A stretch of 64,000 nucleotides of DNA from an uncultured Verrucomicrobiota bacterium. GTDB lineage: Bacteria; Auribacterota; JABMQX01. Every line of letters begins with the position of its first letter. Position 1 is the stretch's first letter. Under the pieces are notes generated by a model. It did no database searches. It saw only the letters and a list, made by a program, of their open reading frames with translations, and was not told the DNA's origin. Below, in pieces: positions 1 through 16,600 of this stretch. The DNA lies in assembly GCA_964640185.1 (NCBI GenBank), contig CAZXGF010000010.1, positions 64,162 through 128,161 of the forward strand, written 5' to 3'. A program made the translations under genes and the position numbers.

Positions 1-37
1 TCCTTGTAACCGGCGAAATGGTGATTGTCTTTCCCAT
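1..37 (-). CDS. mvhA: [NiFe]-hydrogenase large subunit, N-terminal 12 codons only (MvhA-like); the gene continues beyond the window start
   Basis: The reverse complement of nt 1-60 reads AAGGAGGAAAGAC-ATG GGA AAG ACA ATC ACC ATT TCG CCG GTT ACA AGG (MGKTITISPVTR). It is preceded by a Shine-Dalgarno sequence and lies 11 nt downstream of the mvhG stop (TAA, rc of 49-51). The N-terminus parallels the second large subunit in this window (MSKRLTIDPITRLEGHG). Confidence 0.55.
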   Translation of the reverse strand, partial: MGKTITISPVTR

Positions 38-48
38 GTCTTTCCTCC

Positions 49-999
49 TTATCTTGCGGGCCTCTTTGGGAGCGGACGCAGCCGCTTCTGGGCGCCGACG
101 TACCGGTTCAACAAAGCCCTCCTGTCCACGACGTCTCTGACGTTCAGCCCGATGGATGAAATCGCCCCCATCATGTCCACCAGGGGATTGGCGCCTTTTC
201 GGATCGGCCCGAAGCAGCCCCGGCAGGGCATACCGCCCTGGACACACCTGGGGACTTTCACCCCGCCGTCAATCGTCCGAGCGCATCCCGAACGAGTTAC
301 CGGGCCCAAGCACAGAAAACCCTGCTCCATGAAACAGCGCGTGTTATCCCACGGTTCCCCCTGCTTGAATTCCATCGGCTCGAGGCTTCTTTTGATCTGT
401 CCGCCGGCTGCCTTTTTCTCCCTCTTCAGCGGGCAATCGTCGCAGACGCTCCTCTCGGGAAGCTCGAACGGTTTTCCCTCCAACAGGCAGGTGAGCGCCT
501 CGGCGACGAGGTCTGGGTTGGTGGGGCATCCGGGGATGTAGACATCAACGTTGACCACTTCATCCACGGCATACACGCGGTCAAGAAGCGGCGGCAGATT
601 CTCCGACGGCGTATCCGCGGAGTCGGTGGTCTTGGAGCCTCTGTAAACTTTGTCGTAAAGCTCTTCGAGCGTCCACATGTTTGCCATGGCGGGAATGCCA
701 CCGAAACACGCGCATGAACCCAGGGCTATGAGGGTCTTAGTTTTTTTCCTCATCTCCTCTGTGATGTGCTTTTCCTCCTCGTTTCGGACGCCTCCGCTGA
801 TGAGGCCGATGTCCGCTTCCGGAATCTCCAACTCGGTGCCATCGCCCGTCTGTCCGAAATACTTGTGGTCCATCAGGACAGGCATGTGCACGAACTCAAG
901 CTCCGGCAGAAGGTCGAGGAGCTTGTCCCCGATGTCGAGGATCGTCACCTCGCACCCTCCACAGATGTTGAGCCATTCTTCGGCGACTTTCACTGGCAT
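49..999 (-). CDS. mvhG: [NiFe]-hydrogenase small subunit, group 3c MvhG-like (F420-non-reducing type)
   Basis: 316-aa ORF. It has the N-terminal CGGCE and proximal/medial/distal FeS Cys ligands (GSCACFGG, GCP, Cys-rich C-terminus). It is about 40% identical by eye to the second copy at 25376-26368, and sits directly upstream of the large-subunit start. Confidence 0.85.
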   Translation of the reverse strand: MPVKVAEEWLNICGGCEVTILDIGDKLLDLLPELEFVHMPVLMDHKYFGQTGDGTELEIPEADIGLISGGVRNEEEKHITEEMRKKTKTLIALGSCACFGGIPAMANMWTLEELYDKVYRGSKTTDSADTPSENLPPLLDRVYAVDEVVNVDVYIPGCPTNPDLVAEALTCLLEGKPFELPERSVCDDCPLKREKKAAGGQIKRSLEPMEFKQGEPWDNTRCFMEQGFLCLGPVTRSGCARTIDGGVKVPRCVQGGMPCRGCFGPIRKGANPLVDMMGAISSIGLNVRDVVDRRALLNRYVGAQKRLRPLPKRPAR

Positions 1000-1114
1000 T
1001 CTGCACCTCCTCAGGTTGTATGAACGATTTGAGGACAGGATTCGGAAAGCGTGTTCTGTCCTGTTGTCGTGTCAGAATAAATGAACCCAGCAGCGATCGA
1101 AAACCTCCTCCTGC

Positions 1115-1324
1115 TCAAGGCGGCGCCTCTCCCTCCAGAACGATTTCCTTCACCACCCGCCTTGTGTAAAGCAGGTACTTGCCTTCCTGCTCGAAGAGTT
1201 GAACCTGGAAATCATTTTCTTCGTACTCACTCTTCTTTTTCTTCGCCTCCTCCTCTGTCTCATAGATGGCGCCGTCCCACATATATTTGTCCTTGTCCAC
1301 GTACTTGGCCAGCTCAGCTTCCAT
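1115..1324 (-). CDS. small acidic hypothetical protein (69 aa, Glu/Lys-rich) between mvhD and mvhG
   Basis: The ORF fills the mvhD-mvhG gap exactly with tight spacing. It has no recognisable domain and its coding status is uncertain. Confidence 0.35.
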   Translation of the reverse strand: MEAELAKYVDKDKYMWDGAIYETEEEAKKKKSEYEENDFQVQLFEQEGKYLLYTRRVVKEIVLEGEAPP

Positions 1325-1336
1325 AGATTCTCCCCC

Positions 1337-1753
1337 TTATGCCCGATAGGGACTCGGGCCTACCGATTTGATTTGCTCGACCATTTCCGTAGCCACCTGG
1401 GCGAACCTTGGTCCCTCCGAGGCGGAGACCCATTCCAGCCTGAACCTCTCCGGCTCCAGCCCGAAATCTTCGAGCATTAGTTCGATGGCTTCCGCTCTCT
1501 TTTCCGCCTTGAGGTTGCCGTCAATGTAGTGGCAGTCTCCCGGATGGCAGCCGAGGACCAGAACGCCATCCGTGCCTTTGGTCAAGGCATTGATAATCAG
1601 GTTGGGGTGAACCATCCCCGAACACATCACCCTGATAATCCGAATGTTCGGCGGATACTGAAGCCTCGATGTCCCCGCCAGGTCCGCCCCAGCGTACGAA
1701 CACCAGTTACAGCAGAAAGCGATAATGATCGGTTCAAACTCGTCGTTTGCCAT
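1337..1753 (-). CDS. mvhD: methyl-viologen-reducing hydrogenase delta subunit (MvhD, [2Fe-2S])
   Basis: 138 aa with the conserved MvhD Cys pattern (FCCNWCSY...MCSG...GCHPGDCHY). It is about 50% identical to the second copy at 22433-22852. Confidence 0.85.
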   Translation of the reverse strand: MANDEFEPIIIAFCCNWCSYAGADLAGTSRLQYPPNIRIIRVMCSGMVHPNLIINALTKGTDGVLVLGCHPGDCHYIDGNLKAEKRAEAIELMLEDFGLEPERFRLEWVSASEGPRFAQVATEMVEQIKSVGPSPYRA

Positions 1754-1760
1754 AATCGGC

Positions 1761-4700
1761 TCACTCCATCAGCGCCGCCTCGGCCATGGCCCCGATTTGC
1801 TCCAGCTTGAAGTTCCGGACGAAGATGCCCTCCTTGGGGCATGTGGCCTGGCAGACTCCACATCCCTTACATGCCGAAGCATCTCGCTCGACCGTCTTCT
1901 TTATCGCGCCGTCGCGCATGTACTCGATCAGTGTCAGGGCATTGTAAGGGCATGGGTCAATGCAATATGCGCAGCCGTCGCAATTGGCGTCAACGACCTC
2001 GGATATGGTGCCCTCCAGCTCGATTTCATCTTTGGACAGGATGGTTGCTGCCCGGGCCGCAGCACCCTCGGCCTGGCAGATGCTCTCGCTCAGCTCCTTC
2101 GGCGAATGAGCGAGCCCGCACAGGAAAATCCCGTCAGTAGCGAAATCGAGCGGCCTCAGCTTCATGTGCGCCTCGAGGAAAAACTTGTCTCTATTCAGGG
2201 GCAACTTCAATATTTTTGCGATCTCTTCGGCGTCCTCCCGTGGAACGATTGCCGGCGCCAGAATCAGCAGGTCCGCGGCGAGCTCCAGATTGGCGTTCAG
2301 GATAGGGTCGAATACGCGAACGGTCAACCTGTCTTCGTCCCTGGAAACCTCCACGCCGGGGGCGTGGTCATCGGGGTGACGTATGAACTTGACGCCCGCT
2401 TCTCTCGCCTGGGTGTAATACATCTCTCGGAAGCCGTAAGTTCTCATGTCTCTGTGTAGGACGTAAACGTTGGCGGTCGGACGCTGCCGTTTCAGTTCCA
2501 GAGCGTTCTTGACCGCCTGCTGACAGCAGATTCGGCTGCAATAAGGGCGTTCTTCGTCCCGCGACCCCACACACTGAATCATCACGACCGTCCCCGCGTC
2601 CACTTCCCCGGAGGAGAGCTTCTCCTCCAGCTCCAACTGCGTGAGCACCCGGGGGTCCTCGCCGTGGAAATAGCCCGTTTCCGGCAGAGGACGCGCGCCA
2701 ATGGCGACGATAATAATTCCATGCTCCACTTGCTTTTCTTCGCCGTCTTGCTGAAAAGTCGTGGTGAAGCTGCCCACGGAACCTTCTATGGCGGTTATGT
2801 GTGATGACGTGAAGGAGTTGATGAGAGGGTGATTCGTTACTCTCTCGACCAGGTCAGCGAGGATTTGCCGGGGGTCTTCCCCTTCCGGCAGGTAGCGGAC
2901 TCTCCGGAAGTTTCCCCCGAGCTCCTCATCTTTTTCCAGTAGATGCACGTCGAATCCCTGCTCCGCGAGATTAAGCGCTGCGGTCATGCCGCTGATACCG
3001 CCGCCGATGACCAGAGCCGCCTGGTTGACCAGCACGGTAAGTTTCTGCAGCGGCTCGATGAGGGCGGCCTTCGCTACGGCCATTCTTACTAGCGCTTTTG
3101 CTTTCTTGGTGGCTTTCTCCGGCTCGTGCCTGTGCACCCAGGAGCACTGGTCGCGGATGTTGGCCATCTCGAAGAGGTATTCGTTCAGTCCAGCCTCGCG
3201 GATTGTGTTGCGGAACAAGGGCTCGTGCGTGCGAGGTGTGCAGGAGGCCACAAGGACGCGATTGAGGTGGTGTTCCTTGATCATCTCCTTGATTCTCTGC
3301 TGCGTATCGTTGGAGCAGGTATACAGGTTGTCCTCGGCGTGGACAACGTTCGGCAGTCCCTTTGCATACTCGACGACGCTCGGCACGTCAACCACGGCCG
3401 CAATGTTCGTCCCGCAATGGCACACGAAAATGCCGATGCGTGGTTCCTGGCCGCTGACGTCAATTTCCGGAGGGTACTCCTTTTTCACGATTAAGGAGCC
3501 CCTCGCCTCAGAGAGCAGGGCCATGGCGTGCGCCGCGGCGCCGCTGGCCTGGGCGACGGTTTCGGGAATGTCCTTCGGCTCCGTGAAGGGACCGGACACG
3601 AAAATGCCTTCACTGTCAACGCTTGTCGGGCAAGAGCGCGCCGTTTTGCAGAATCCGAACTCGTTCAACTCCAGCCCGAACTTCTTCGCAAGTTCCTCAG
3701 CCCCCTTGGGCGGCTTGACGCCGGTTGAGAGAACAACCATGTCGTATTCCTCGAGATGCGTCTTGCCTTCCTCGGTTACGTAGCGCACCTCGATGTTCTT
3801 CGTATCGGAAATCTCCCTCAGGGCTGACGGTCGGCACTTGATATACCTCACGCCCGCCTCCTGAGCCCGAGCGTAATAATCGTCGTAACCTTTCCCGAAA
3901 GCTCTTAGGTCAATATAGTAGATATCGCACGCCAGTCCGGGAGAATGCTCCATGGCGATGATCGCCTCCTTGGTGGCGTACATGCAGCAGATAGAAGAGC
4001 AGAAAGAGCATCCCTCATCAGCCTGCCGCGAACCGAAGCACTGTAGGAAGGCGACCCTCTTTGGCGGCTTGTGATCCGATGGACGAAGCATCTCGCCCAG
4101 ATAAGGCCCCGTCGCGCTCAGGAGGCGCTCGAACTCGAGGGCCGTAAGCACATTGGGGGAATAGGAGTAGCCGTATTCGGGCTTGAGGTCGGGATCGAAT
4201 CGTTCGTACCCTGGCGAGAGAATGACCGCTCCGACATCCACCTTCTCTTCCGTTTCCTTCTGTTCGTAGTTAATGGCACCGGCTTCACAGGACTCTTTGC
4301 ATATCTGACATACCTCTCCGCCTCGGAGCATGTGGGCGCAGTGTTCCCTATCAATCAGCGCGCGGTTCGGGACAGCCTGAGGATAGGGAATGTAAATGGC
4401 GGGCCGGGCGATCAACTCCTCGTTGTATTCGTCGAGAATGGGCCTGGGCTCTCTGGTGGCCACCTCCGAGAGGTTAATTCTCCCCGTAGGACAAATGAAG
4501 GCGCACGCTCCGCAGACCTGGCAGACATCCGTGGGCGCCCCGAAGGGAGGTTTGACCTCTCGTTTGGAGCCGCGGTTCACGAAGCTTACAGCAGCCGCGC
4601 CCATTCTCTCCTCACACATTCGCACGCAGCGGCCGCAAAGCATACAGTCCTCGTCCTTCTTCTTGAACCTCGTCTCTTTGACGCCGCATTCTTCGGCCAG

Positions 4701-5027
4701 CTTTTGTATTTCCTCGGCATCCGGGCATCTCGCGAGGAGAAGTTCAATCATTATTTTTCGCGCCCTGAGGACCCTGTCGGTATCGGTGCTGACGACCATG
4801 CCGTCTTTGGCAGGGTACGTGCACGATGCGCGGACTGCCGAACGATTCCCCTCTGAAATCTCCACCAGGCAGACCCTGCACGAGCCGTACGGCTTCAAAG
4901 CCTTGTGGTAGCAAAGAGTGGGTATTTTGATGCCAGCCTTTTGAGCAGCCTCGAGGATGGTGTTTCCCTCTTCCACTTCAATTTGTTGTCCGTCAATAGT
5001 CAGGCTTATCACGCCAATACCTTTCAA
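1761..5027 (-). CDS. hdrA: giant HdrA-like flavoprotein (1088 aa): N-terminal NuoG/FdhA-type 2Fe-2S plus 4Fe-4S domains, a partial HdrA-like unit, then a complete HdrA unit
   Basis: N-term CYHKALKPYGSCRVC (2Fe-2S) and several CxxCxxCxxxCP motifs. One HdrA core lacks its N-terminus (FLQCFGSRQADEGCSFCSSICCMYA...IYYIDLRAFGKGYDDY). A full HdrA follows: IGIFVCHCGTNIAAVVD, FAD motif VIGGGISGMTAALNLAEQG, VGSRDEERPYCSRICCQQA, and a C-terminal ferredoxin domain. Confidence 0.8.
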   Translation of the reverse strand: MKGIGVISLTIDGQQIEVEEGNTILEAAQKAGIKIPTLCYHKALKPYGSCRVCLVEISEGNRSAVRASCTYPAKDGMVVSTDTDRVLRARKIMIELLLARCPDAEEIQKLAEECGVKETRFKKKDEDCMLCGRCVRMCEERMGAAAVSFVNRGSKREVKPPFGAPTDVCQVCGACAFICPTGRINLSEVATREPRPILDEYNEELIARPAIYIPYPQAVPNRALIDREHCAHMLRGGEVCQICKESCEAGAINYEQKETEEKVDVGAVILSPGYERFDPDLKPEYGYSYSPNVLTALEFERLLSATGPYLGEMLRPSDHKPPKRVAFLQCFGSRQADEGCSFCSSICCMYATKEAIIAMEHSPGLACDIYYIDLRAFGKGYDDYYARAQEAGVRYIKCRPSALREISDTKNIEVRYVTEEGKTHLEEYDMVVLSTGVKPPKGAEELAKKFGLELNEFGFCKTARSCPTSVDSEGIFVSGPFTEPKDIPETVAQASGAAAHAMALLSEARGSLIVKKEYPPEIDVSGQEPRIGIFVCHCGTNIAAVVDVPSVVEYAKGLPNVVHAEDNLYTCSNDTQQRIKEMIKEHHLNRVLVASCTPRTHEPLFRNTIREAGLNEYLFEMANIRDQCSWVHRHEPEKATKKAKALVRMAVAKAALIEPLQKLTVLVNQAALVIGGGISGMTAALNLAEQGFDVHLLEKDEELGGNFRRVRYLPEGEDPRQILADLVERVTNHPLINSFTSSHITAIEGSVGSFTTTFQQDGEEKQVEHGIIIVAIGARPLPETGYFHGEDPRVLTQLELEEKLSSGEVDAGTVVMIQCVGSRDEERPYCSRICCQQAVKNALELKRQRPTANVYVLHRDMRTYGFREMYYTQAREAGVKFIRHPDDHAPGVEVSRDEDRLTVRVFDPILNANLELAADLLILAPAIVPREDAEEIAKILKLPLNRDKFFLEAHMKLRPLDFATDGIFLCGLAHSPKELSESICQAEGAAARAATILSKDEIELEGTISEVVDANCDGCAYCIDPCPYNALTLIEYMRDGAIKKTVERDASACKGCGVCQATCPKEGIFVRNFKLEQIGAMAEAALME

Positions 5028-5039
5028 CCTTGGACCTTC

Positions 5040-5615
5040 TTACTCCATCTCTTTACTCAAAGCGCCCCCGCCTTCAATTTCAGCCGTGTCCAGTAGATAT
5101 CTTTTTTCTCCCCTGCGGTACGCATACGTGAAGCGAATTCCGGGGTGGCCCGCAATTAGTGCCTCCAGCGTCTGGGCCATGTCCCCCAGCGGCTTGATGT
5201 CTATATGATTTGTCTTGAATGTAGCCCTCACTACCGTCCCCCGCCGGGCCTCGGACGTAATCTCGAAATCTCCTTCGCACTCTTTAGCCGCCTGGGAGAG
5301 AAGCGATAAACCGAGGCCCACTTTTCCTCCTTCTCTCGTGGTAAAGAAGGGGCCGGTGGCCTTCCTCACAGTCTGCTCATCCATCCCTTTTCCGTCATCT
5401 TCGATTTCGATAGTTAAAAGTTTCCTTTTCTCGTCATCCGTGACTCGAATGTCCACCTTGCTCGCCCCTGCGGCCACTGCATTTTCGGCTATGTCCAAAA
5501 CGTGCAAAGAAAGGTCTTCCACTATTCCTCGAAGAAAACTCCTCTTCCTTCTCGGCCCAGGAGGGCTTTTTTTATTTCCTGCGACTCCATTGCTTCGGCA
5601 AGAAAGCCGGTCCAC
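5040..5615 (-). CDS. GHKL-type ATPase domain protein (anti-sigma-factor/Ser-kinase-like)
   Basis: HATPase_c-like motifs (LHVLDIAENAV, IEIEDDGKGMD, GLGLSL). The annotated GTG start overlaps the PHP gene by about 90 nt, so the true start may be a downstream GTG. Confidence 0.6.
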   Translation of the reverse strand: MDRLSCRSNGVAGNKKSPPGPRRKRSFLRGIVEDLSLHVLDIAENAVAAGASKVDIRVTDDEKRKLLTIEIEDDGKGMDEQTVRKATGPFFTTREGGKVGLGLSLLSQAAKECEGDFEITSEARRGTVVRATFKTNHIDIKPLGDMAQTLEALIAGHPGIRFTYAYRRGEKRYLLDTAEIEGGGALSKEME

Positions 5616-6265
5616 CGCTTCCCAATATCTTCGGGGTAGTGAGCGTCCGAGAAAGTCACAAGGGGAAAAGCCTGCACCGCCGGGAATGCGGACCTGGCCT
5701 CGGCGAGTGTGCTCCTCGGAGAGACCTCCAGAGCGTCCAGCTCCAGACCTTCGGGGATGAACCCTAACTGCCCTATAATGCCGAAACTCTCGCGATCCAC
5801 ATGCGACGCGATGGCAATCCCGGAAAGCGAGTGAATCTCCTGGACAATGCTGTCGAGGGGCAAAGTAGTTGCACCTACCAAAAGTCTCTCGTTTATCTCC
5901 ACGACCTCATCGTTCTCGTTGACAACCACTTGCTCGCCGAAGGCCCTTTCATCATTCACGCCGGGGAGACTGTCATACACTCTTTCTTGCAGCTTCAATA
6001 GCTTTTCCTCCCGATCAAACAGCGCCAGCACATGTACCTCCTCTTCGGACGTTATTTCCATTCCTCCCAGCACTGCTATTCTGGTTTTTTCGGCGGCTTT
6101 CCTCACTGCCGCCGCGTTTTCCGCCGAGTTGTGGTCACATATCGCGATGACGTCCAACCCCCTTTTCTGGGCTTCTTCGATGATAACTCCGGGGACCATG
6201 GCCAAGCTTCCACACGGCGAAAGGCACGTGTGAATGTGCAAGTCCGCCCGGAACCCTCTCAGCAT
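5522..6265 (-). CDS. PHP (polymerase and histidinol phosphatase) domain protein
   Basis: N-terminal ADLHIHTCLSPCG and later CDHNS and DAHYPEDIG metal-binding His/Asp motifs typical of the PHP family. Confidence 0.75.
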   Translation of the reverse strand: MLRGFRADLHIHTCLSPCGSLAMVPGVIIEEAQKRGLDVIAICDHNSAENAAAVRKAAEKTRIAVLGGMEITSEEEVHVLALFDREEKLLKLQERVYDSLPGVNDERAFGEQVVVNENDEVVEINERLLVGATTLPLDSIVQEIHSLSGIAIASHVDRESFGIIGQLGFIPEGLELDALEVSPRSTLAEARSAFPAVQAFPLVTFSDAHYPEDIGKRWTGFLAEAMESQEIKKALLGREGRGVFFEE

Positions 6266-6609
6266 GAGGCCGTTCCGCGAAGTCCAAGCTGATACAGCCG
6301 GCCCACAACCTCGAAGGTTGGCAGGCTCGTCACCAGAATCGGTACTCCCTCTTTTTCAGCCCTGCTCAGGGTTTCTGAATCCGGCTCTCTTCCGTTGACG
6401 ATAACTACTCCCGCGAGCTCTTTGACAACCGCAACAGCTACGATATTCTGATGAAGTTGAACCGTCACCCAGAGACAGTCCTTACCCGCATGGGCCATCA
6501 CGTCGCTCAACAGGTCGCTGGCGTAACCGCCGCTCACCTCCCGGGAGAGGTTCCCGGCCGCCGATCTCACCTCCATTTTCAGCTCGCGGACTGCCTCCTC
6601 TAATTTCAT
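6259..6609 (-). CDS. DRTGG domain protein
   Basis: 116 aa with a DRTGG-like core (GGYASDLLSDVMAHAGKDCLWVTVQ...VVIVNGR...GVPILVTSLPTFEVVGRL). Confidence 0.65.
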   Translation of the reverse strand: MKLEEAVRELKMEVRSAAGNLSREVSGGYASDLLSDVMAHAGKDCLWVTVQLHQNIVAVAVVKELAGVVIVNGREPDSETLSRAEKEGVPILVTSLPTFEVVGRLYQLGLRGTASC

Positions 6610-6621
6610 CTGCGCCCTTTC

Positions 6622-7539
6622 CTAATCCGGGAAATGGAATGTGGCCTGCAGGTCTGTCCCTTTCCCGACCTTCGATTTCAATACCATCTCGTCCGCACTT
6701 TTCTGAATGTTGCAAAGTCCCATCCCTGCGCCGAAGCCCAGTTCCCGCACCCATTCCGGCGCCGTGGAAAAGCCCGGCTGCATCGCTTGTTCTATGTCCT
6801 CAATCCCGGGGCCCTTGTCTTTCGCCTGAATCTGGATGTATTCCGGGTAAATGTGGGAGACCATTTCCCCCTTTTCTGCGAACACCACGATGTTCATCTC
6901 TGCTTCGTACGTCGCAATGGCAACTCTGCGGACCACCTGCGGGGCAAACCCGAGCCGAGTGAGCGTTTTCTTCAGCGTACTCGCAGAAATCCCTGCCCGG
7001 TCGAAATCTCCTCCCAGCACGTTGTATCGCAGGGTTATGACTGTTTTATCAGCGAGGATGTCCTCGAAAATGTGGCTGGCCCGGTAGCGATGAATCTCTT
7101 CCTCCCGGTAGTCAATCTCTAATTTGTTCAACAGTCCTCTGATGATGTCCCCTTTGCTCAAAATGCCAGCCAACTGTCCGGTCTTGCGGTCAACCACCGG
7201 GAATCGCCCAAAGCCGTAGCGCTCGAATTTATTGATGGCATGAACCACCGGCTCGTCGGCATAGAGAACCTCCAGCTTCCTGGTCATCTTCTTTTCCACC
7301 GAGCAATCCATCTCCCCGCCAGCCAGGCACTTAATGAAATCTTCAATGCTGATAATTCCCACCAAGTTCTCGCCATCAACAACGGGAGTTCCGGAAATCT
7401 TGTTCACACGGAAGAGTTCTCTCAGCTCACCGACAGGGCAATCAGGCCGGGCTGTTATCACTTCCCTGGTCATCACTTCTCCCACTTTCAGCTCGTATGT
7501 CAGCTCCTGAACCCTGCCGATTCCCCGGTCCTTGCCCAT
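6622..7539 (-). CDS. CBS-pair + GHKL ATPase regulatory protein
   Basis: Two CBS-like segments (VITARPDCPV...GTPVVD and ...GRFPVVD...GILSKGDII) followed by a histidine-kinase-like ATPase domain (GPGIEDIEQA, GFGAGMGL). Confidence 0.7.
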   Translation of the reverse strand: MGKDRGIGRVQELTYELKVGEVMTREVITARPDCPVGELRELFRVNKISGTPVVDGENLVGIISIEDFIKCLAGGEMDCSVEKKMTRKLEVLYADEPVVHAINKFERYGFGRFPVVDRKTGQLAGILSKGDIIRGLLNKLEIDYREEEIHRYRASHIFEDILADKTVITLRYNVLGGDFDRAGISASTLKKTLTRLGFAPQVVRRVAIATYEAEMNIVVFAEKGEMVSHIYPEYIQIQAKDKGPGIEDIEQAMQPGFSTAPEWVRELGFGAGMGLCNIQKSADEMVLKSKVGKGTDLQATFHFPD

Positions 7540-7561
7540 TTCCGCCTCTTCATCAGGAACA

Positions 7562-7915
7562 TCAGTTCACTTCGGAACATCCCGGCAAACCGTTTTTGTA
7601 AAGCCGCCCGCACGTCTCGAACATGGGCAACTGGGTCAACAACAGAGGTATGCCCTTGTTCTCTGCCAACCGCACAGTCTCCTCACCGGGTCTTTTTCCT
7701 CGAACAAAGCAGATAGCTTTGATATCAACCATCTCAGCCGTGCGAATAACCTGGGGATTGGTTAGTCCCGTTATGAGGAGCGCCCCTTGCTTGACGAAGG
7801 CGAGCACGTCGCTCATCAGGTCCGCCCCGCAAGCCATGCCGACCTCTGTATCCAAACCATTGCCGCCGGAGATGACCTCCGCGTCCAGAATTCGCTCCAC
7901 TTCGTCGAGTTTCAT
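7562..7915 (-). CDS. DRTGG domain protein (second copy)
   Basis: The ORF track gives 7562..8089. I trimmed the start to the internal Met (MKLDEVERIL) because the upstream part overlaps the end of the NuoF-like gene. DRTGG-like core: GADLMSDVLAFVKQGALLITGLTNPQVIRTAEMVDI...GIPLLLTQLPMFETCGRL. Confidence 0.6.
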   Translation of the reverse strand: MKLDEVERILDAEVISGGNGLDTEVGMACGADLMSDVLAFVKQGALLITGLTNPQVIRTAEMVDIKAICFVRGKRPGEETVRLAENKGIPLLLTQLPMFETCGRLYKNGLPGCSEVN

Positions 7916-7925
7916 GAAAGACTCC

Positions 7926-9719
7926 TCACCTTCTGGTGACGGCGCCGAACTTGCAGACCTCGTAGCACAATCCGCACTTGATACATTTTGCCGGGTCAAT
8001 AGTCTGCGGCTCCTTCTTTTCGCCGCTGATGGCCTCCGAGGGGCATTTCTTGACGCAGAGCATGCATCCGGTGCACTTCTCGGGGTCAATTAGGTACTCG
8101 ATCAAGCCTTTGCAGACCCCCGCAGGGCACCTCTTTTCCTTTATGTGTGCCTCATACTCGCTTCTGAAGTATTTCAGCGTGCTCAGTACCGGATTGGGAA
8201 GAGTCTGACCCAGTCCGCACAGCGACGCATCCTTAATGGCATTGCCCAATTCCTCAAGGAGCTCGAGGTCTCCCTCTCTGCCTTCCCCCTCGCAGATGCG
8301 GGTCAGGATCTCCAGGAGAGCCTCCGAGCCCTCGCGGCAAGCTGTGCATTTCCCGCACGACTCGGCATTCGTGAACCGTATGAAATAGCGAGCAACGTCC
8401 ACCACACATGTTTCTTCGTCCATTACGATCATTCCCCCAGAGCCCATAATAGAGCCTGCTTCCGTCAGGCGCTCGTAATCCACAGGAAGGTCTATTAGCT
8501 CTGCCGGAATGCACCCGCCCGAGGGGCCGCCGGTCTGCACCGCTTTGAACTTTTTCCCGTTCGGGATACCGCCCCCGATATCGAAGACGATCTCCCTTAA
8601 GGGGATCCCCATCGGCACCTCAACCAGCCCCGTATTGTTAATCTTACCCACGAGAGAAAAAACCTTCGTCCCCTTACTTTTCTCCGTACCTATGCTCGAA
8701 AACCAGTCGGCTCCTCGCAAAATGATCGTCGGTACAGTTGCCCAGGTCTCCACATTGTTGATGTTCGTGGGCTTCCCCCATAACCCACATTCGACAGGGT
8801 AGGGAGGTCTTTGCCTCGGCTCCGGCGGTCGGCCCTCGATGGACGCCAGCAGCGCGGTCTCCTCCCCGCACACGAAGGCTCCTGCCCCCACGTGAACCTC
8901 GACGTCAAAACTAAAATCGGTGTCGAATATGTTTTTGCCCAGAAGTCCGTAATCTCTCGCCTGCTCGATGGCGATTTTGATCCTTTCAAGGGCCAGGGGA
9001 TATTCACTTCTGATGTAGATAAACCCTTCCTCGGCGCCGATGGCCCTGGCGCCAATCAGCATCCCCTCCAGGACCGACTGCGGGTCTGCCTCCGCTATGC
9101 TCCTGTCCATGAACGCCCCCGGGTCCCCCTCATCGCCGTTGCATACAACATACTTCGGTTGGCCCTGAGCCTTCCGGCATAGGTCCCACTTGAGCCCGGT
9201 GGGGAACCCTGCCCCTCCTCTGCCCCGCAGCCCGGAAGCTTTGATCGTCTCGACAATCTCCTCCGCGGTCATCTCACTCAGCGCTTTTGCCAGAGCTTTG
9301 TACCCGTCCCGGGCGATATACTCGTCTATCTTTTCGGGATCAATTAGACCCCTGTTTCTCAGGGCCACGAGTGTCTGGCGCGCGAAAAAGCCGATATCCA
9401 TCATCCTGGGAATCGGCTTGTCCTCTGGAGGCGGAGAGTACATCAAGCGCTCAACGGGACGCCCTTTCAAGAAATGCTCTTCTACGAGGTGCGGAATATC
9501 CTCCACGGTGAGCTGTTGGTAGAAGATTCCTTCCGGCATGACTGTCATGACAGGGCCCACCGCACAAAAGCCGTTGCACCCGGTCATGACCACTGCAATT
9601 TCGTCTTCAAGACCTTGTTTCGCCAGTTCTTTATCGAGCGCTTCCTTGACCTGGAACGACCTGTTCGAAACACAGGCCGTCCCCGCGCAAAGCATCAAGT
9701 GCGTTCTATATCTCTTCAA
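7926..9719 (-). CDS. NuoF/HndC/HydB-like NAD(P)H-binding FMN flavoprotein with an N-terminal thioredoxin-like 2Fe-2S domain and a C-terminal 2x[4Fe-4S] ferredoxin domain
   Basis: NAD(P)H site GLRGRGGAGFPTGLKW, FMN site YVVCNGDEGDPGAFMDR, 4Fe-4S site ESCGKCTACREG, and C-terminal CxxCxxCxxxCP x2 motifs. Confidence 0.85.
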   Translation of the reverse strand: MKRYRTHLMLCAGTACVSNRSFQVKEALDKELAKQGLEDEIAVVMTGCNGFCAVGPVMTVMPEGIFYQQLTVEDIPHLVEEHFLKGRPVERLMYSPPPEDKPIPRMMDIGFFARQTLVALRNRGLIDPEKIDEYIARDGYKALAKALSEMTAEEIVETIKASGLRGRGGAGFPTGLKWDLCRKAQGQPKYVVCNGDEGDPGAFMDRSIAEADPQSVLEGMLIGARAIGAEEGFIYIRSEYPLALERIKIAIEQARDYGLLGKNIFDTDFSFDVEVHVGAGAFVCGEETALLASIEGRPPEPRQRPPYPVECGLWGKPTNINNVETWATVPTIILRGADWFSSIGTEKSKGTKVFSLVGKINNTGLVEVPMGIPLREIVFDIGGGIPNGKKFKAVQTGGPSGGCIPAELIDLPVDYERLTEAGSIMGSGGMIVMDEETCVVDVARYFIRFTNAESCGKCTACREGSEALLEILTRICEGEGREGDLELLEELGNAIKDASLCGLGQTLPNPVLSTLKYFRSEYEAHIKEKRCPAGVCKGLIEYLIDPEKCTGCMLCVKKCPSEAISGEKKEPQTIDPAKCIKCGLCYEVCKFGAVTRR

Positions 9720-9746
9720 TCCCTTTTTCCGATTCCCTAATGGTTT

Positions 9747-10130
9747 CTAAGACTGCCGTTCACTTCCTCTGGCCAATGCGTACTCCGTCACGGCTTTTCC
9801 GCCCAAGACGTGCTCATCGAGAATCCTGCGGGTCTTGTCCGGAGTCAGGTCCACGTACTTGACAGGCGCCTCTCCCTTCAATTCGACTGTCGCCATGGGT
9901 TCGCGACTGCATAGCCCTGCACATCCGCTACTGGTCAAGATAACGTCCTTGATATCCTTATTCTCGAACTCGTCCAGAAGCGTGTTCATGATTTCTCTTG
10001 CTCCTGCGGCGATACCACAGGTCCCCATGTGGACGGTAATTTTGGCTCTCCCCGCCCCCTGCCGGAGTAGAGTAGCCCTCCTTACCTTTTCGGCAATCCT
10101 GTCGAGGTCTTCGATCTTTATCTTGGACAT
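9747..10130 (-). CDS. NuoE/HndA-like thioredoxin-fold [2Fe-2S] ferredoxin
   Basis: 127 aa with the Cys pattern HMGTCGIAAG ... SSGCAGLC typical of thioredoxin-like 2Fe-2S ferredoxins. Confidence 0.75.
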   Translation of the reverse strand: MSKIKIEDLDRIAEKVRRATLLRQGAGRAKITVHMGTCGIAAGAREIMNTLLDEFENKDIKDVILTSSGCAGLCSREPMATVELKGEAPVKYVDLTPDKTRRILDEHVLGGKAVTEYALARGSERQS

Positions 10131-10141
10131 CCCTTGTTCCC

Positions 10142-11101
10142 CTACCTGTACTTTTCAACGATCTTCAGCACTTCTGCTTGGGTCAGCTTGCCATAGAGGT
10201 CCTCTCCGATGGTCATAACCGGCGCCAGGCCGCAACACCCGATGCAGTTGACAGTTTCCAGGGTAAAAGCCATGTCCTCCGATGTCTCACCGGTTGCTAT
10301 GCCAAGTGCTCGCTCGAGCGTCTCAACAATGAGGGGAGCGCCTTTAACATGGCAGGTCGTCCCCATGCAAACGGTGACGATGTGTTTCCCTCTCGGCTTG
10401 AGGCTGAAGGAGGCGTAAAAAGTAGCTATCCGGTAAATCAGGCTTAGAGGGATATCAAGCTGGCGAGCTAAATAGCGCAAGACATCTTCGGGAAGATAGT
10501 TGTAGCTTGAGTTGATGCTCTGCAAGATGGACACTATTGGTCCCTTTTCGCCACGGTGTTCATGCAGAATCTCGTCCACCCTCACCCGGTCCTCCGCTGC
10601 GAGCTCAACCTTCTTTTTCTCCTCTGGCTTCAGCACATATATTTGGTTCCTTACAGGGCAGATGCCCATACACTCCCCGCAGCCGGTGCACTTGTCCTCC
10701 TCAACGAAGCGGGGACGCTTTTTGAGGGTTGCCTGAAAGCGTCCGGGACTTCCCTCAAGCCTCTCCACATGCGCCAGGGTAATCACCTCGATATCCTTAT
10801 GCCTCCCGATTTCCACGAGACGGGGGGCCATAGTGCACATTGCGCAGTCATTCGTCGGGAAGGTTTTGTCAAGCTGGGACATCACCCCCCCAATGCTGGG
10901 TTTGTTATCCACCAGATAAACCTTGAATCCTGATTCGGCGAGGTCGAGGGCGGCTTGCATACCACCGATCCCCCCGCCCACGACAAGAACGGCGCCAACT
11001 TTGCCGTTTCTTCGTTGACGGTTATCGCTCATTAAATGTTGGTCCTTTGCAAAACCTCTACCCGGCAATCGCCGGCGCCTATCTTCGCTCAGCCCTTTCA
11101 A
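10142..11101 (-). CDS. fusion protein: an HdrA-like N-terminal FAD-binding fragment joined to a NuoE-like [2Fe-2S] domain
   Basis: N-terminal half: VLVVGGGIGGMQAALDLAESG...DCAMCTMAPRL...CTGCGECMGICP (HdrA-type dinucleotide fold plus a 4Fe-4S site). C-terminal half: CMGTTCHVKG...VNCIGCCGLAPV (NuoE signature). The start overlaps the upstream gene stop in an ATGA arrangement. Confidence 0.7.
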   Translation of the reverse strand: MKGLSEDRRRRLPGRGFAKDQHLMSDNRQRRNGKVGAVLVVGGGIGGMQAALDLAESGFKVYLVDNKPSIGGVMSQLDKTFPTNDCAMCTMAPRLVEIGRHKDIEVITLAHVERLEGSPGRFQATLKKRPRFVEEDKCTGCGECMGICPVRNQIYVLKPEEKKKVELAAEDRVRVDEILHEHRGEKGPIVSILQSINSSYNYLPEDVLRYLARQLDIPLSLIYRIATFYASFSLKPRGKHIVTVCMGTTCHVKGAPLIVETLERALGIATGETSEDMAFTLETVNCIGCCGLAPVMTIGEDLYGKLTQAEVLKIVEKYR

Positions 11102-11556: not shown

Positions 11557-11559
11557 GGT

Positions 11560-12300: not shown

Positions 12301-12307
12301 AGATGGG

Positions 12308-12598
12308 TTGCGTCCTGTTCTGACAGCGGCGAGAGAGGTACTGGCACAGGCGTCCAGAAGAGGCTTCTGCGAGCCTTGCAGGGAAAGCTGGGATATCCGC
12401 ATTTGTTCTCGTGGTTTCGGATGGACGCCCTCGGGACAGCGGAGACCAGAGCACCACATTCATCGGCCGCCGGTAATGGAGGACCGCCTGCCTCTGAGTT
12501 CGGGGGGTAAAGGCGCTGGACATGTAGTGCTTTTTGATACGCCACGTTCGGCTTCGAAACCGGCAGGTTCGGTTTTTCGCCACGTCATGCCCGCATGA
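12308..12598 (+). pseudogene. IS630-family transposase C-terminal fragment (opposite orientation)
   Basis: The plus-strand ORF ends ...HVVLFDTPRSASKPAGSVF, resembling the conserved IS630 C-terminal HFTPTSASWLNQVERWF block. The rest is degraded. Confidence 0.35.
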
Positions 12599-14015: not shown

Positions 14016-14076
14016 ATTGTTGGCTATGAGTTCTGAGGGATATCGCCATACGATGCCAATGTGAGGGAGTGCTCAG

Positions 14077-15246: not shown

Positions 15247-15266
15247 CTATTAAGGAATAGCTACTC

Positions 15267-16590: not shown

Positions 16591-16600
16591 CGAGTAAACG

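What the first reader, a model, noticed from the sequence alone, without database searches (positions are those of the whole stretch)
1761..5027. 1088-aa HdrA-like giant with NuoG-type N-terminal FeS domains and an internal partial HdrA duplication
Domain order read from the sequence: [2Fe-2S, NuoG/FdhA-N-like] - [His/Cys cluster CPDAEE...CMLCGRCVRMC] - [2x 4Fe-4S] - [HdrA core lacking its N-terminus, with a CCMY-type Cys-rich segment] - [complete HdrA with FAD motif, a CCQQ Cys segment and a C-terminal 2x4Fe-4S ferredoxin]. A tandem flavin-site arrangement is reminiscent of large HdrA-like (HdrL/HdrA2-type) proteins. Combined with the NuoG-like entry domain it suggests an extended electron wire from NuoF to the bifurcating flavin.
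Basis: seen in the sequence. Interest (0 to 1): 0.55.

Follow-up and report, generated by a model that had tools for sequence, protein, structure and literature searches.

The report
Hydrogenase scaffold fusing NuoG and HdrA
This is a real, widely conserved 1,088-residue iron-sulfur flavoprotein that joins a NuoG-like electron-entry domain to a double HdrA unit whose missing front piece is encoded upstream, fused to NuoE. With the neighbouring NuoF-like and Mvh [NiFe]-hydrogenase genes it probably forms an uncharacterised enzyme linking H2 to NADH and ferredoxin.

Summary
The ORF (1761..5027, minus strand) is real. More than 120 full-length relatives exist in many uncultured phyla, and every cysteine motif is conserved, so it is not a frameshift artefact.

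- The N-terminus is a short Bfu-type BfuA domain (one [2Fe-2S], two [4Fe-4S]). There is no His/Cys cluster.
- The "HdrA core lacking its N-terminus" is not a partial duplicate. Its FAD-binding start, CxxC pair and first ferredoxin half-motif sit on the upstream gene 10142..11032, fused to NuoE/HydC.
- The C-terminal "complete HdrA" lacks the inserted ferredoxin domain and the CxxC.

Together the two pieces equal an intact ~1000-aa fused HdrA dimer of the BamE type. That gene appears to have been split inside its ferredoxin domain by a hydC-hydD-hydB-regulators-hydA' cassette. The flavin-site lysine is invariant in the split unit (82/82 loci) and variable in the second, so the split unit is the likely catalytic flavin.

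The operon continues with mvhD, mvhG, mvhA and hycI. The most likely function is the central scaffold of an NAD(H)- and ferredoxin-coupled Mvh-type [NiFe]-hydrogenase that carries both a HydBC/Bfu core and an HdrA module. I rate it a new variant of known kinds. I found no description of it.

The parts
1761..5027 (-). Giant ORF (1088 aa from TTG 5027; probable true start GTG 5012). It is a BfuA-like domain fused to a fused-HdrA-dimer body that lacks the first ~120 residues of unit 1.
4467..5012 (-). BfuA/NuoG-N-like domain, aa 6-187. [2Fe-2S] ligands C39/C50/C53/C69. Two [4Fe-4S] from C128/131/134/138 and C169/172/175/179. The His-ligated cluster of HydA/NuoG is absent.
   Evidence: Pfam Fer2_4 and Fer4_Nqo3. 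Near-gapless alignment to 9mqx_A (E 2.6e-46) and deletion relative to 8a6t_A and 7t2r_A. Cys invariant.
4242..4448 (-). aa 194-262: the inter-motif segment and second Cys motif (C230, C240, C243, C247) of the HdrA 'inserted ferredoxin' domain. It is an orphan half-domain within this polypeptide.
   Evidence: Aligns to 5odc_A 257-~320. AF2 pLDDT is below 50 for 192-252. Cys invariant in 31/31 class I loci.
3492..4241 (-). aa 263-512: C-terminal two-thirds of TrxR-like flavin module 1. [4Fe-4S] ligands C330/C343/C347/C348. Lys353 is the equivalent of HdrA Lys409.
   Evidence: Lys353 and the Cys are invariant in 82/82 loci.
3048..3449 (-). aa 527-660: HdrA N-terminal-type domain of unit 2. [4Fe-4S] ligands C536/C538/C571/C596.
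   Evidence: Aligns to 5odc_A 2-135. The four Cys are invariant; C628 is variable.
2013..3047 (-). aa 661-1005: TrxR-like flavin module 2. It has GGGISG (G675/G677/G680, E698) and [4Fe-4S] ligands C819/C830/C834/C835. Lys840 is present here but variable in the family. There is no inserted ferredoxin domain and no CxxC.
1764..2012 (-). aa 1006-1088: C-terminal 2x[4Fe-4S] ferredoxin domain (C1016/1019/1022/1026 and C1053/1056/1059/1063).
   Evidence: Pfam Fer4_7 1015-1065. Aligns to 5odc_A ~570-644. Cys invariant.
10628..11032 (-). HdrA N-fragment ('HdrAN', first ~135 aa of the 296-aa gene product). It carries the GGGIGG FAD-binding start of flavin module 1, LDKTFPTNDC-AM-C (the Cys197-type CxxC), and the first ferredoxin motif C-TG-C-GE-C-MGI-CP.
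   Evidence: NCBIfam HdrA2 positions 138-256. PDB HdrA 142-258. 58% identity to residues 4-118 of the same genome's intact fused HdrA. Motifs invariant in 27 loci.
10142..10585 (-). NuoE/HydC/BfuC domain ([2Fe-2S] thioredoxin-like) fused to HdrAN in the same ORF.
   Evidence: Pfam 2Fe-2S_thioredx 7.8e-48. 8a6t_C E 2.4e-47. At least 120 fusion proteins of 272-326 aa.
9747..10130 (-). Small thioredoxin-like [2Fe-2S] protein (127 aa), HydD-like.
   Evidence: Conserved in the Mvh-linked (class Ia) loci.
7926..9719 (-). NuoF/HydB/BfuB homologue (597 aa). It has an N-terminal [2Fe-2S] domain, an FMN/NADH domain, the NuoF [4Fe-4S], and a C-terminal 2x[4Fe-4S].
   Evidence: Colinear over 3-595 with the NiFe-HydABCSL subunit B 7t2r_B, E 3.5e-266. 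Pfam.
5040..7915 (-). Five putative regulatory genes embedded in the operon: DRTGG (7562..7915), CBS+HATPase (6622..7539), DRTGG (6259..6609), PHP (5522..6265), HATPase (5040..5507).
   Evidence: Pfam. Gene calls in L001. Conserved in L003-L008, L013 and L031.
1337..1753 (-). MvhD ([2Fe-2S] adaptor), 7 nt downstream of the giant.
   Evidence: Pfam FlpD 1.6e-56. Follows the giant in nearly all related loci.
49..999 (-). MvhG-like [NiFe]-hydrogenase small subunit.
   Evidence: Pfam Oxidored_q6; NCBIfam VhuG 1.5e-69.
1..37 (-). First 12 codons of MvhA ([NiFe] large subunit, 480 aa). The rest, followed by the HycI protease gene, lies beyond the window edge and is seen in L001.
   Evidence: PDB hits are Mvh/Vhu large subunits and 7t2r_D at about 1e-122 to 1e-125.

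Best explanation
What it is: the 1088-aa protein is the central electron-transfer scaffold of a multi-subunit cytoplasmic [NiFe]-hydrogenase.

Build: a short Bfu-type BfuA (NuoG-N-like) domain is fused to the body of a 'fused HdrA dimer' of the BamE type. The first ~120 residues of HdrA unit 1 are encoded upstream, fused to the N-terminus of NuoE/HydC (BfuC). They comprise the FAD-binding beta-alpha-beta, the CxxC pair and the first half of the inserted ferredoxin domain.

Assembly (inferred from homology): the two polypeptides rebuild flavin site 1 and a 2x[4Fe-4S] ferredoxin domain whose clusters take ligands from both chains. This clamps the HydBC/BfuBC NAD(H)/ferredoxin module onto the HdrA body. 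MvhD then docks the Mvh hydrogenase (MvhG, MvhA).

Predicted cofactors of giant plus HdrAN: one [2Fe-2S], nine [4Fe-4S] and two FAD.

Most likely reaction (inferred): reversible 2 H2 + NAD+ + 2 Fd(ox) = NADH + 2 Fd(red) + 3 H+, as in HydABC and NiFe-HydABCSL. Electrons would run MvhA - MvhG - MvhD - FAD1/HdrA clusters - BfuA clusters - BfuB FMN.

Where the energy is coupled: I judge it somewhat more likely that coupling happens at the intact BfuBC core, with the HdrA flavin acting as a gated 1e/2e relay and as the docking platform for MvhD. The alternative is that both modules bifurcate.

Origin: the gene arrangement looks like a hydC-hydD-hydB-regulators-hydA(N-term) cassette inserted into a fused hdrA gene, right after its first ferredoxin motif.
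For: Shown:
- Domain parse by Pfam, NCBIfam, PDB phmmer and Foldseek.
- Contiguous HdrA2-profile coordinates across the two genes: 138-256 and 254-562.
- The same genome's intact 1002-aa fused HdrA aligns residues 4-118 to HdrAN (58%) and 92-1001 to giant 156-1083 (48%).
- In 29 related loci both pieces are one ORF.
- In 19 other loci with a full-length giant, and in the window's own contig L001, HdrAN is fused to NuoE. In 8 Desulfobacterales loci it is a stand-alone ORF ending at the same point.
- There are at least 120 fusion proteins in public data.
- NuoF lies directly upstream of every full-length giant. It is colinear with a biochemically proven bifurcating BfuB (7t2r_B, E 3.5e-266), with all Cys motifs aligned.
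- mvhD-mvhG-mvhA-hycI follow in the window's own contig and, apart from one locus (L009) where mvhG-mvhA-hycI lie upstream, in 7 further loci from distinct phyla.
- HdrL-type relatives carry a GltD-like NAD(P)H module at the very same insertion point and are also followed by mvhDGA.
- Lys353 is invariant in 82/82 loci; Lys840 is variable.
- AF2 gives very low confidence only to the orphan half-ferredoxin segment and the C-terminal ferredoxin domain.

Literature:
- BamE is a fused HdrA dimer with seven [4Fe-4S] clusters. Its bifurcating FAD, with Lys280 and the Cys59-Cys62 pair, is in TrxR1. A non-bifurcating FAD is in TrxR2. It is coupled to BfuABC-like BamGHI via MvhD-like BamF (bioRxiv 10.64898/2026.04.10.717634).
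- Fused HdrAs show complementary Cys197 / N-domain loss (PMC9012536).
- Bfu family definition (PMC9304861).
Against: - There is no biochemical or expression data for any member.
- Assembly in trans is inferred from homology, not modelled.
- The pairing of the four Cys motifs is ambiguous. The last BfuA motif (C169...) sits exactly where HdrA's first ferredoxin motif would be.
- The strict conservation of Lys353 and of CxxC/CxxU argues that FAD1 does real redox chemistry, which a mere conduit would not need.
- In HdrABC and BCRII the TrxR1 cluster hands the high-potential electron to HdrC or BamD. No such subunit is encoded in this operon, so one branch has no obvious acceptor.
- About ten loci with a full-length giant and enough flank carry no hydrogenase but FlxABC-like, FrhB-like or fumarate-reductase-like genes. 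The core is therefore a general hub and the H2 link is specific to one subgroup.
- Promoter and terminator scans are at chance level, so operon unity rests on short gaps and synteny only.
Confidence: 0.6

Rival explanations
1. Double-bifurcation machine. Both the BfuBC FMN/FeS core and HdrA FAD1 bifurcate or confurcate in series, as proposed for class II benzoyl-CoA reductase. This would let the complex reach a potential beyond ferredoxin or serve a fourth, unidentified substrate in addition to H2, NAD(H) and ferredoxin.
For: - Both modules keep all hallmark residues. BfuB has its full cluster set. Lys353 and CxxC/CxxU are invariant.
- BCRII shows that such coupling exists.
- The same core is combined with other partner modules in other lineages.
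Against: - No gene for a high-potential output (HdrBC or BamD type) or a very-low-potential acceptor lies in the operon or within 10 kb in the Mvh-linked loci.
- The H2/NAD/Fd couple needs only one bifurcation.
Confidence: 0.25
2. The gene holds an internal partial HdrA duplication, the C-terminal 'complete' HdrA carries the bifurcating flavin, and the truncated copy is a degenerate or structural remnant.
For: - The GxGxxG motif is found only in unit 2 of this polypeptide.
- Unit 2 has the N-terminal domain and the C-terminal ferredoxin domain.
Against: - The missing part of unit 1 is encoded upstream and is strictly conserved.
- The flavin-site Lys is invariant in unit 1 and replaceable in unit 2.
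- The CxxC/Sec pair belongs to unit 1.
- In BamE the equivalent second FAD is non-bifurcating.
Confidence: 0.07
3. The giant/NuoEF/MvhD core is an NADH- and ferredoxin-linked reductase of a thiol/disulfide or DsrC-like acceptor, working with HdrBC encoded elsewhere (for example hdrC/hdrB at 16180..17506 in this window). The adjacent Mvh hydrogenase would be only an alternative electron donor.
For: - HdrC- and HdrB-like genes exist 5 kb from the operon.
- In HdrABC the TrxR-domain cluster normally feeds HdrC.
- Flx-Hdr and HdrABC/HdrL systems are thought to reduce DsrC.
Against: - That hdrCB pair sits in its own cluster with its own canonical hdrA (661 aa) and mvhD.
- The tblastn survey used only this operon's own proteins as queries, so it could not detect hdrBC; no hdrBC-like gene is called within 10 kb of the giant on the window's own contig, and none appeared among the downstream genes scanned in four related loci.
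Confidence: 0.07
4. Assembly or sequencing artefact: two genes joined by a frameshift.
For: None found.
Against: - The identical protein occurs on 7 contigs.
- More than 120 full-length homologues of the same length exist, and 31 genome loci from many phyla.
Confidence: 0.01

Closest known systems
BamE with BamF/G/H/I of class II benzoyl-CoA reductase (Geobacter metallireducens BCRII; bioRxiv 10.64898/2026.04.10.717634)
   Same: - Fused HdrA dimer in the same unit order: TrxR1 with CxxC and Lys, inserted ferredoxin, then N-domain, TrxR2 and C-terminal ferredoxin, with seven [4Fe-4S] and two FAD.
- It is coupled to a HydABC-like BfuABC module (BamGHI) through an MvhD-type adaptor (BamF).
- The second-site Lys is replaceable (Gln768 in BamE).
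   Different: - Here BfuA is covalently fused to the HdrA body, and unit 1 is split, with its N-part on BfuC.
- There is no BamD (HdrBC-like) and no BamBC tungsten module. The partner is an Mvh [NiFe]-hydrogenase.
- Lys840 is retained in this protein.
HdrL (HdrA/glutamate-synthase-type fusion; Strittmatter 2009, PMC2702500) and HdrL-MvhDGA loci such as Solibacteraceae SbA4 (L019)
   Same: - A large fused-HdrA body, 55-60% identical over residues 240-1086.
- Followed by mvhD (and mvhG, mvhA).
- A pyridine-nucleotide entry module is placed inside the inserted ferredoxin domain.
   Different: - HdrL carries a GltD/NfnB-like Fer4_20 + Pyr_redox_2 module in one polypeptide.
- The window protein has none. 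It uses a separate NuoF/NuoE (BfuBC) module, with gene fission at that site.
NiFe-HydABCSL (Acetomicrobium mobile; PDB 7T2R) and FeFe-HydABC, the Bfu family
   Same: - The BfuB homologue is colinear with 7t2r_B (E 3.5e-266).
- BfuC, a BfuA N-terminal domain and a group 3 [NiFe] large subunit are all present (7t2r_D, E 2.6e-123).
- The expected overall H2/NAD/Fd chemistry is the same.
   Different: - In HydABCSL the hydrogenase subunits dock directly on a long BfuA that has the His-ligated A3 cluster.
- Here BfuA is the short A3-less type, and MvhD plus a fused HdrA dimer with two FAD lie between the hydrogenase and BfuA.
MvhAGD-HdrABC of methanogens (PDB 5ODC)
   Same: - MvhA, MvhG and MvhD homologues are present.
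- The HdrA domains, cluster ligands and Lys409 equivalent are conserved.
   Different: - There is no HdrB or HdrC.
- HdrA is a covalent pseudo-heterodimer, split and fused to Bfu parts.
- NCBIfam HdrA and HdrA2 scores are below their cut-offs.
WOR5-BfuABC BfuA (PDB 9MQX_A)
   Same: Best solved-structure match for aa 7-187 (E 2.6e-46, colinear), with the same cluster complement.
   Different: A stand-alone 247-aa subunit that feeds a tungsten oxidoreductase nanowire. It is not fused to HdrA.
Fused or tandem HdrA of ANME archaea and of Moorella MetFV-HdrABC-MvhD (Chadwick 2022, PMC9012536)
   Same: Pseudo-heterodimer logic: one unit keeps the Cys197-type cysteine and the other keeps the N-terminal cluster domain.
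   Different: - The unit order described for ANME HdrA3/4 is the reverse.
- None is described as split by, or fused to, NuoE/NuoG-type domains.

Membership tests
Bfu family (BfuABC; Schut 2022), BfuA Type 2 | An adjacent BfuB with the full cluster set: N-terminal [2Fe-2S] domain, NuoF [4Fe-4S], extra [2Fe-2S], and C-terminal 2x[4Fe-4S]. Non-bifurcating homologues lack these. | tested here: met
   The 597-aa NuoF-like protein is colinear over 3-595 with 7t2r_B, with all Cys motifs aligned. Pfam finds 2Fe-2S_thioredx, Complex1_51K, NADH_4Fe-4S and two Fer4.
Bfu family (BfuABC; Schut 2022), BfuA Type 2 | BfuC: a NuoE-like [2Fe-2S] subunit. | tested here: met
   aa 174-319 of the 319-aa ORF match HydC 8a6t_C, E 2.4e-47. 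Here it carries an N-terminal HdrA fragment.
Bfu family (BfuABC; Schut 2022), BfuA Type 2 | BfuA N-terminal domain with A1 [2Fe-2S] and two [4Fe-4S], lacking the His-ligated A3 cluster. Extra subunits deliver the third substrate's electrons. | tested here: met
   Near-gapless match to 9mqx_A; the His-cluster segment is deleted relative to 8a6t_A and 7t2r_A.
Bfu family (BfuABC; Schut 2022), BfuA Type 2 | Tightly coupled NAD(H)/ferredoxin bifurcating activity. | not testable with these tools
   Requires enzyme assays.
HdrA (heterodisulfide reductase subunit A) | TrxR-like FAD domain with a [4Fe-4S] on C-x12-C-x3-CC and a Lys at flavin N5 (Lys409 in 5ODC). | tested here: met
   Present twice: C330/343/347/348 with K353, and C819/830/834/835 with K840.
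HdrA (heterodisulfide reductase subunit A) | Single polypeptide in the order N-domain, TrxR with inserted ferredoxin, C-terminal ferredoxin; scores above the equivalog cut-off. | tested here: not met
   NCBIfam HdrA2 scores 822.9 against a cut-off of 1100; HdrA scores 631.7 against 1400. The domains are permuted and shared between two units and two genes.
HdrA (heterodisulfide reductase subunit A) | Partner HdrB (CCG domains) and HdrC in the complex or operon. | tested here: not met
   No CCG-domain gene lies in the operon or within 10 kb downstream. An hdrCB pair at 16180..17506 belongs to another cluster with its own hdrA.
Fused HdrA dimer (BamE-type, ~1000 aa) | Two TrxR units in the order TrxR1(N) - inserted ferredoxin - TrxR1(C) - N-domain - TrxR2 - C-terminal ferredoxin. 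CxxC and the invariant Lys are in unit 1. | tested here: met
   HdrAN plus giant 156-1083 is colinear with intact 1002-1022-aa homologues. For the motifs. The caveat is that unit 1 is split over two polypeptides.
Fused HdrA dimer (BamE-type, ~1000 aa) | Direct sequence or structure similarity to BamE itself. | not tested
   The BamE sequence and model (PDB 29QY) were not available. The correspondence rests on the residue numbers and description in the preprint.
HdrL | A GltD/NfnB-like NAD(P)H-binding module (Fer4_20 + Pyr_redox_2) within the HdrA polypeptide. | tested here: not met
   No such domain in the giant. It is present in the related L019 protein.
Mvh-type (group 3c-like) [NiFe]-hydrogenase complex | MvhA large subunit, MvhG small subunit and the MvhD adaptor next to an HdrA. 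| tested here: met
   FlpD 1.6e-56 and VhuG 1.5e-69. The MvhA and HycI genes are in L001. PDB matches to Mvh/Vhu large subunits. A formal HydDB group assignment was not made.
NuoG / complex I 75-kDa subunit | His-ligated N5 cluster and a C-terminal molybdopterin-like domain. | tested here: not met
   Only residues 6-119 match NuoG/NDUFS1 chains. The His cluster is absent.

The most novel reading that the evidence does not exclude
A widespread, unrecognised class of cytoplasmic [NiFe]-hydrogenase in mostly uncultured phyla (Phycisphaerae/Planctomycetota, Aminicenantes, Acidobacteriota, Latescibacterota, Cloacimonadota and others) hard-wires two different electron-bifurcation devices in series: a HydBC/Bfu FMN-FeS core and an HdrA-type FAD. 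The wiring comes from a gene fission and fusion that splits the bifurcating flavin domain and its ferredoxin domain between two polypeptides, giving inter-subunit [4Fe-4S] clusters. Both sites would be catalytically used. This would make it the second known enzyme, after BCRII, to couple two bifurcation modules, and a modular hub re-used with Flx-, FrhB- and fumarate-reductase-like partners.
Probability: 0.25. Interest if true: 0.8.

Novelty: new variant of a known kind. Interest (0 to 1): 0.6.

Why it matters
- **Mis-annotation.** Metagenomic surveys routinely label these genes 'HdrA' or 'MvhADG/HdrABC (group 3c)' and infer heterodisulfide-linked H2 metabolism in bacteria that have no heterodisulfide (for example). 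The anatomy here argues instead for an NAD(H)/ferredoxin-coupled hydrogenase. That changes how H2 production and consumption are assigned in fermentative and subsurface lineages.
- **Mechanism.** It offers a natural, simpler system (H2, NAD, Fd) for asking how a HydBC/Bfu core and an HdrA flavin communicate. The 2026 BCRII preprint states that two flavin-based electron bifurcation (FBEB) modules in one complex had not been reported before.
- **Evolution.** It is a clean example of a functional gene fission inside a flavin and ferredoxin domain. A parallel solution, the HdrL GltD insertion, sits at the same site.

Tried and rejected
- **Literature.** Nine full-text searches on combinations of HdrA, NuoE/F/G, MvhD/ADG, Bfu, HydBC, HdrL, Aminicenantes and '-like' terms, with follow-up reads, found no description of this architecture. 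The Bfu classification paper lists only Bam-Bfu as HdrA-containing, and its held supplement has no Hdr or Mvh entry. Pereira 2011 and Appel 2021, the reviews most likely to mention it, are not held, so prior mention cannot be excluded.
- **Structure.** A single-chain AF2 model of the giant (pLDDT 74) confirmed the folds through Foldseek but cannot show assembly in trans. I considered modelling a chimera (HdrAN 1-128 + giant 183-1088, built).
- **Operon signals.** The promoter and terminator scan of 1..12500 was at shuffle level, so it carries no information on operon structure.
- **A failed first attempt.** My first ORF-based test of 'same ORF' membership was unreliable because of overlapping frames and in-frame TGA codons. 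I replaced it with HSP-frame logic and an alignment.
- **Readings rejected.** A His-ligated N5-type cluster; frameshift fusion; HdrL membership.

Full report
**1. The observation**

The minus strand of 1761..5027 carries an uninterrupted 1088-codon ORF. The identical protein is found on 7 contigs from independent assemblies. A search of 5.8 billion proteins returned more than 120 clusters of 1077-1098 aa covering 99-100% of it at 61-83% identity. Where a source names them, they come from Phycisphaerae/Planctomycetota, Aminicenantes, Latescibacterota, Actinobacteria ('Ca. Hydromicrobium') and others. They are annotated only as 'FAD-dependent oxidoreductase' or 'heterodisulfide reductase subunit A'.

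A scan of one genome per species found 31 loci with a full-length match. These also include Acidobacteriota, Spirochaetes, Cloacimonadota, Fibrobacterota, Desulfobacterales and two archaeal MAGs. All cysteine motifs are invariant in alignments of 20 and 119 sequences. The gene is therefore real, and the frameshift alternative is excluded.

The annotated TTG start is probably six codons too early. Homologues begin at the position of V6. A GTG at 5012 is preceded by AAAGGT at a suitable distance.

**2. Domain parse**

Pfam, NCBIfam, PDB sequence search and Foldseek on an AF2 model (pLDDT 74) agree.

- *aa 7-187.* This is a NuoG/HydA-N-type domain. Its best solved match is the 247-aa BfuA subunit of the tungsten aldehyde oxidoreductase WOR5-BfuABC (9mqx_A, E 2.6e-46), and the alignment is colinear with almost no gaps.
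- *No His/Cys cluster.* Alignments to HydA of T. kivui and to the A subunit of NiFe-HydABCSL show that the H-x3-C-x2-C-x5-C segment binding the His-ligated cluster is deleted. 'CMLCGRCVRMC' is the first motif of a 2x[4Fe-4S] domain (C128/131/134/138 and C169/172/175/179) that follows the [2Fe-2S] site (C39/50/53/69). In the terms of Schut et al. 2022 this is a Type 2 BfuA.
- *aa 194-~510.* This matches HdrA (5odc_A) residues 257-510. It covers the second half of the 'inserted ferredoxin' domain (C230, C240, C243, C247) and the TrxR-like core, with the [4Fe-4S] site C330/C343/C347/C348 and Lys353. Counting along the alignment, these correspond to C386/C399/C403/C404 and Lys409 of 5ODC.
- *aa 527-758.* This matches HdrA 2-234: the N-terminal cluster domain and the GGGISG start of a second TrxR module.
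- *aa 900-1080.* This matches HdrA 468-644, including the C-terminal 2x[4Fe-4S] domain.
- *Unit 2.* It has its own C819/C830/C834/C835 site and Lys840. It has no inserted ferredoxin domain and no CxxC pair.

**3. The missing piece is upstream**

The ORF at 10142..11101 (296 aa from the start used by the public gene call, 10142..11032) is a fusion. Its first ~135 residues match HdrA residues 142-258 and its last ~150 are NuoE/HydC.

In the NCBIfam HdrA2 profile the fragment covers positions 138-256 and the giant's first HdrA stretch covers 254-562. The two genes meet at one point of the HdrA sequence.

The fragment supplies exactly what unit 1 of the giant lacks:
- the GGGIGG dinucleotide-binding start;
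- the LDKTFPTNDC-x2-C pair;
- the first ferredoxin motif, C-x2-C-x2-C-x3-CP.

The same genome encodes, 8 kb further on (outside the window, L001 18692-21700), an intact 1002-aa fused HdrA. Its residues 4-118 align with the fragment (58% identity). Its residues 92-1001 align in a single HSP with giant residues 156-1083 (48%). Three other intact ~1010-1020-aa proteins behave the same way.

Across 82 related loci three architectures appear:
- *Class I.* A full-length giant with NuoF immediately upstream and the HdrA fragment in front of NuoE.
- *Class II.* The fragment and body in one ~950-1170-aa ORF.
- *Class III.* The fragment, then a ~500-aa GltD/NfnB-like module (Fer4_20 + Pyr_redox_2), then the body. 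This is the HdrL type of Strittmatter et al. 2009.

In 19 class I loci, and in the window's own contig L001, the fragment is fused to NuoE. In 8 Desulfobacterales loci it is a stand-alone ORF that stops just after the ferredoxin motif, and the second Cys of CxxC is an in-frame TGA, presumably selenocysteine. The fusion protein itself has at least 120 database clusters of 272-326 aa.

The simplest history is this. A fused hdrA gene was interrupted right after its first ferredoxin motif by a hydC-(hydD)-hydB-...-hydA' cassette. The cassette's last ferredoxin motif (C169...C179-P) now occupies the sequence position of the displaced HdrA motif. That coincidence also explains why HdrA alignments run on through it (second and third hits).

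**4. Which flavin matters**

Lys353 (unit 1) is invariant in 82/82 loci. Lys840 (unit 2) is K in 61 loci and D, E, N, Q, R, A or L in 21. The CxxC/CxxU pair exists only in unit 1.

This mirrors the cryo-EM description of BamE in class II benzoyl-CoA reductase. BamE is a fused HdrA dimer with seven [4Fe-4S] clusters. The N-terminal TrxR1 holds the bifurcating FAD (Lys280, Cys59-Cys62). TrxR2 holds a non-bifurcating FAD (Gln768). It also fits the Cys197 / N-domain complementarity noted for fused HdrAs by Chadwick et al. 2022.

So the 'truncated' unit is the probable catalytic one. It is built from two polypeptides, and the two cubanes of its ferredoxin domain would each take ligands from both chains. 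That last point is an inference from the canonical 2x[4Fe-4S] fold. AF2 gives pLDDT below 50 to the orphan half-domain 192-252, as expected if its partner is missing.

Predicted cofactors of giant plus fragment: one [2Fe-2S], nine [4Fe-4S] and two FAD.

**5. Context**

On the same strand, separated by short gaps (7-27 nt; 115 nt before mvhG) or a 7-nt overlap, lie:
- an HTH regulator;
- HdrAN::NuoE;
- a small thioredoxin-like [2Fe-2S] protein;
- a 597-aa NuoF homologue;
- five putative regulators (DRTGG, CBS-HATPase, DRTGG, PHP, HATPase);
- the giant;
- MvhD;
- a 69-aa ORF;
- MvhG;
- MvhA and the HycI protease (the last two seen on the longer public contig L001).

The NuoF homologue is colinear over residues 3-595 with subunit B of the biochemically proven bifurcating NiFe-HydABCSL (7t2r_B, E 3.5e-266), with all cluster motifs aligned. 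It meets the definition of a bifurcating BfuB rather than a plain NuoF. MvhA matches the Mvh/Vhu large subunits and 7t2r_D about equally well.

Mvh genes accompany the giant in 8 distinct class I loci from several phyla, and in 9 HdrL-type loci.

In about ten other class I loci with enough flank, MvhD is followed by something else:
- FlxC/B/A-like genes (Fer4, Fer4_22, FAD/NAD PyrK-like) in Desulfobacterales and Spirochaetales;
- an FrhB-like protein plus a second fused HdrA in an archaeon;
- an FeS protein plus a fumarate-reductase-type flavoprotein in L040.

The BfuBC-giant-MvhD set is thus a hub used with different partner modules.

**6. Mechanism**

*Shown:* the architecture, its conservation and its gene partners.

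*Inferred:* in this lineage the complex is a cytoplasmic hydrogenase that equilibrates H2 with NAD(H) and ferredoxin, as HydABC and NiFe-HydABCSL do. MvhD and the fused HdrA dimer sit between the hydrogenase and the BfuA wire.

I lean (about 0.6 for the overall function) to the view that the intact BfuBC core does the energy coupling. On that view FAD1 acts as a gated one-/two-electron relay and as the only known docking platform for Mvh-type hydrogenases. My reasons are that the operon encodes no HdrBC/BamD-type high-potential outlet, and that the three-substrate reaction needs one bifurcation only.

The strict conservation of Lys353 and CxxC/Sec keeps the alternative alive at about 0.25. In that case both modules bifurcate in series, as proposed for BCRII.

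A role with HdrBC encoded elsewhere is less likely. The hdrCB pair at 16180..17506 belongs to a separate cluster with its own hdrA and mvhD.

**7. Known or new**

Every part belongs to a known kind: the Bfu family, fused HdrA dimers, HdrL, and Mvh. The following were not found described in nine full-text searches and the papers read:
- the combination BfuA::fused-HdrA;
- HdrAN::BfuC;
- the split flavin and ferredoxin domain;
- the link to an Mvh hydrogenase.

Metagenome papers file such genes under MvhADG/HdrABC. I therefore rate it a new variant of known kinds, of real interest to bioenergetics specialists, but resting entirely on sequence inference.

Noticed in passing
window 12957..25353 (+ strand): A second, separate Hdr-related cluster: malate dehydrogenase-like, SucC, SucD, HdrC-like (16180..16590), HdrB-like with CCG domains (16601..17506), three 2-oxoacid:ferredoxin oxidoreductase subunits (17647..20214), a canonical 661-aa HdrA (20470..22455), a second MvhD (22433..22852), an FeS protein (22960..23670) and a 555-aa fumarate-reductase-type flavoprotein (23686..25353). 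The stretch 16-22 kb has GC 0.46-0.49 against ~0.56 elsewhere, which hints at foreign origin. It looks like an HdrABC-MvhD-linked fumarate or TCA-cycle redox module.
   Followed up: partly
L040 15023..17382; compare window 22960..25353: The same FeS + FAD_binding_2 flavoprotein gene pair that follows the canonical HdrA-MvhD in the window lies about 1.5 kb downstream of the giant-MvhD pair in MAG BHB10-38_Bin_124, after a spurious-looking antisense ORF. The BfuBC-giant hub can apparently be coupled to this putative fumarate-reductase-like module too.
   Followed up: partly
L016, L026, L028, L029, L032, L033, L050, L064 (e.g. L050 7124..7500): In Desulfobacterales relatives the HdrA N-fragment is a stand-alone ~125-aa ORF. 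An in-frame TGA replaces the second Cys of the NDC-x2-C pair (C-A-M-U), so it is probably a selenoprotein that ORF callers truncate.
   Followed up: partly
window 5040..7915 (-): Five putative signalling genes (DRTGG, CBS+HATPase, DRTGG, PHP, HATPase) sit inside the operon between the NuoF-like gene and the giant. They are conserved at that place in eight related loci (L003-L008, L013, L031). From my own knowledge, similar sets accompany hydABC operons in Thermotogae and Firmicutes. Their role is unknown.
   Followed up: no
window 1115..1324 (-): A 69-aa acidic/lysine-rich ORF between mvhD and mvhG (MEAELAKYVDKDKYMWDG...) with no Pfam match. The public annotation calls it as a gene.
   Followed up: no
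L001 17084..23267 (beyond the window's left edge): Directly after hycI the contig carries another cluster: a Fer4 protein, an FrhB/FdhB-like protein (378 aa), an intact fused HdrA dimer (1002 aa), a second-type MvhD (159 aa) and two more FeS proteins. This is a Flx/Frh-like HdrA system next to the hydrogenase operon.
   Followed up: partly
window 47402..48915 (-): Two adjacent ORFs (299 and 221 aa) contain CxxCH motifs (…SCTACHTRH…, …TCLACHATLN…), suggesting c-type cytochromes. Upstream neighbours at 45309..47360 were not analysed.
   Followed up: no
window 11098..11556 (-): An HTH_17 (MerR/excisionase-type) protein with a Cys-rich C-terminal half (…CEDC…CPGPCEECEYY…) is the first gene of the operon. 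It may be a redox- or metal-sensing regulator of the hydrogenase genes.
   Followed up: no
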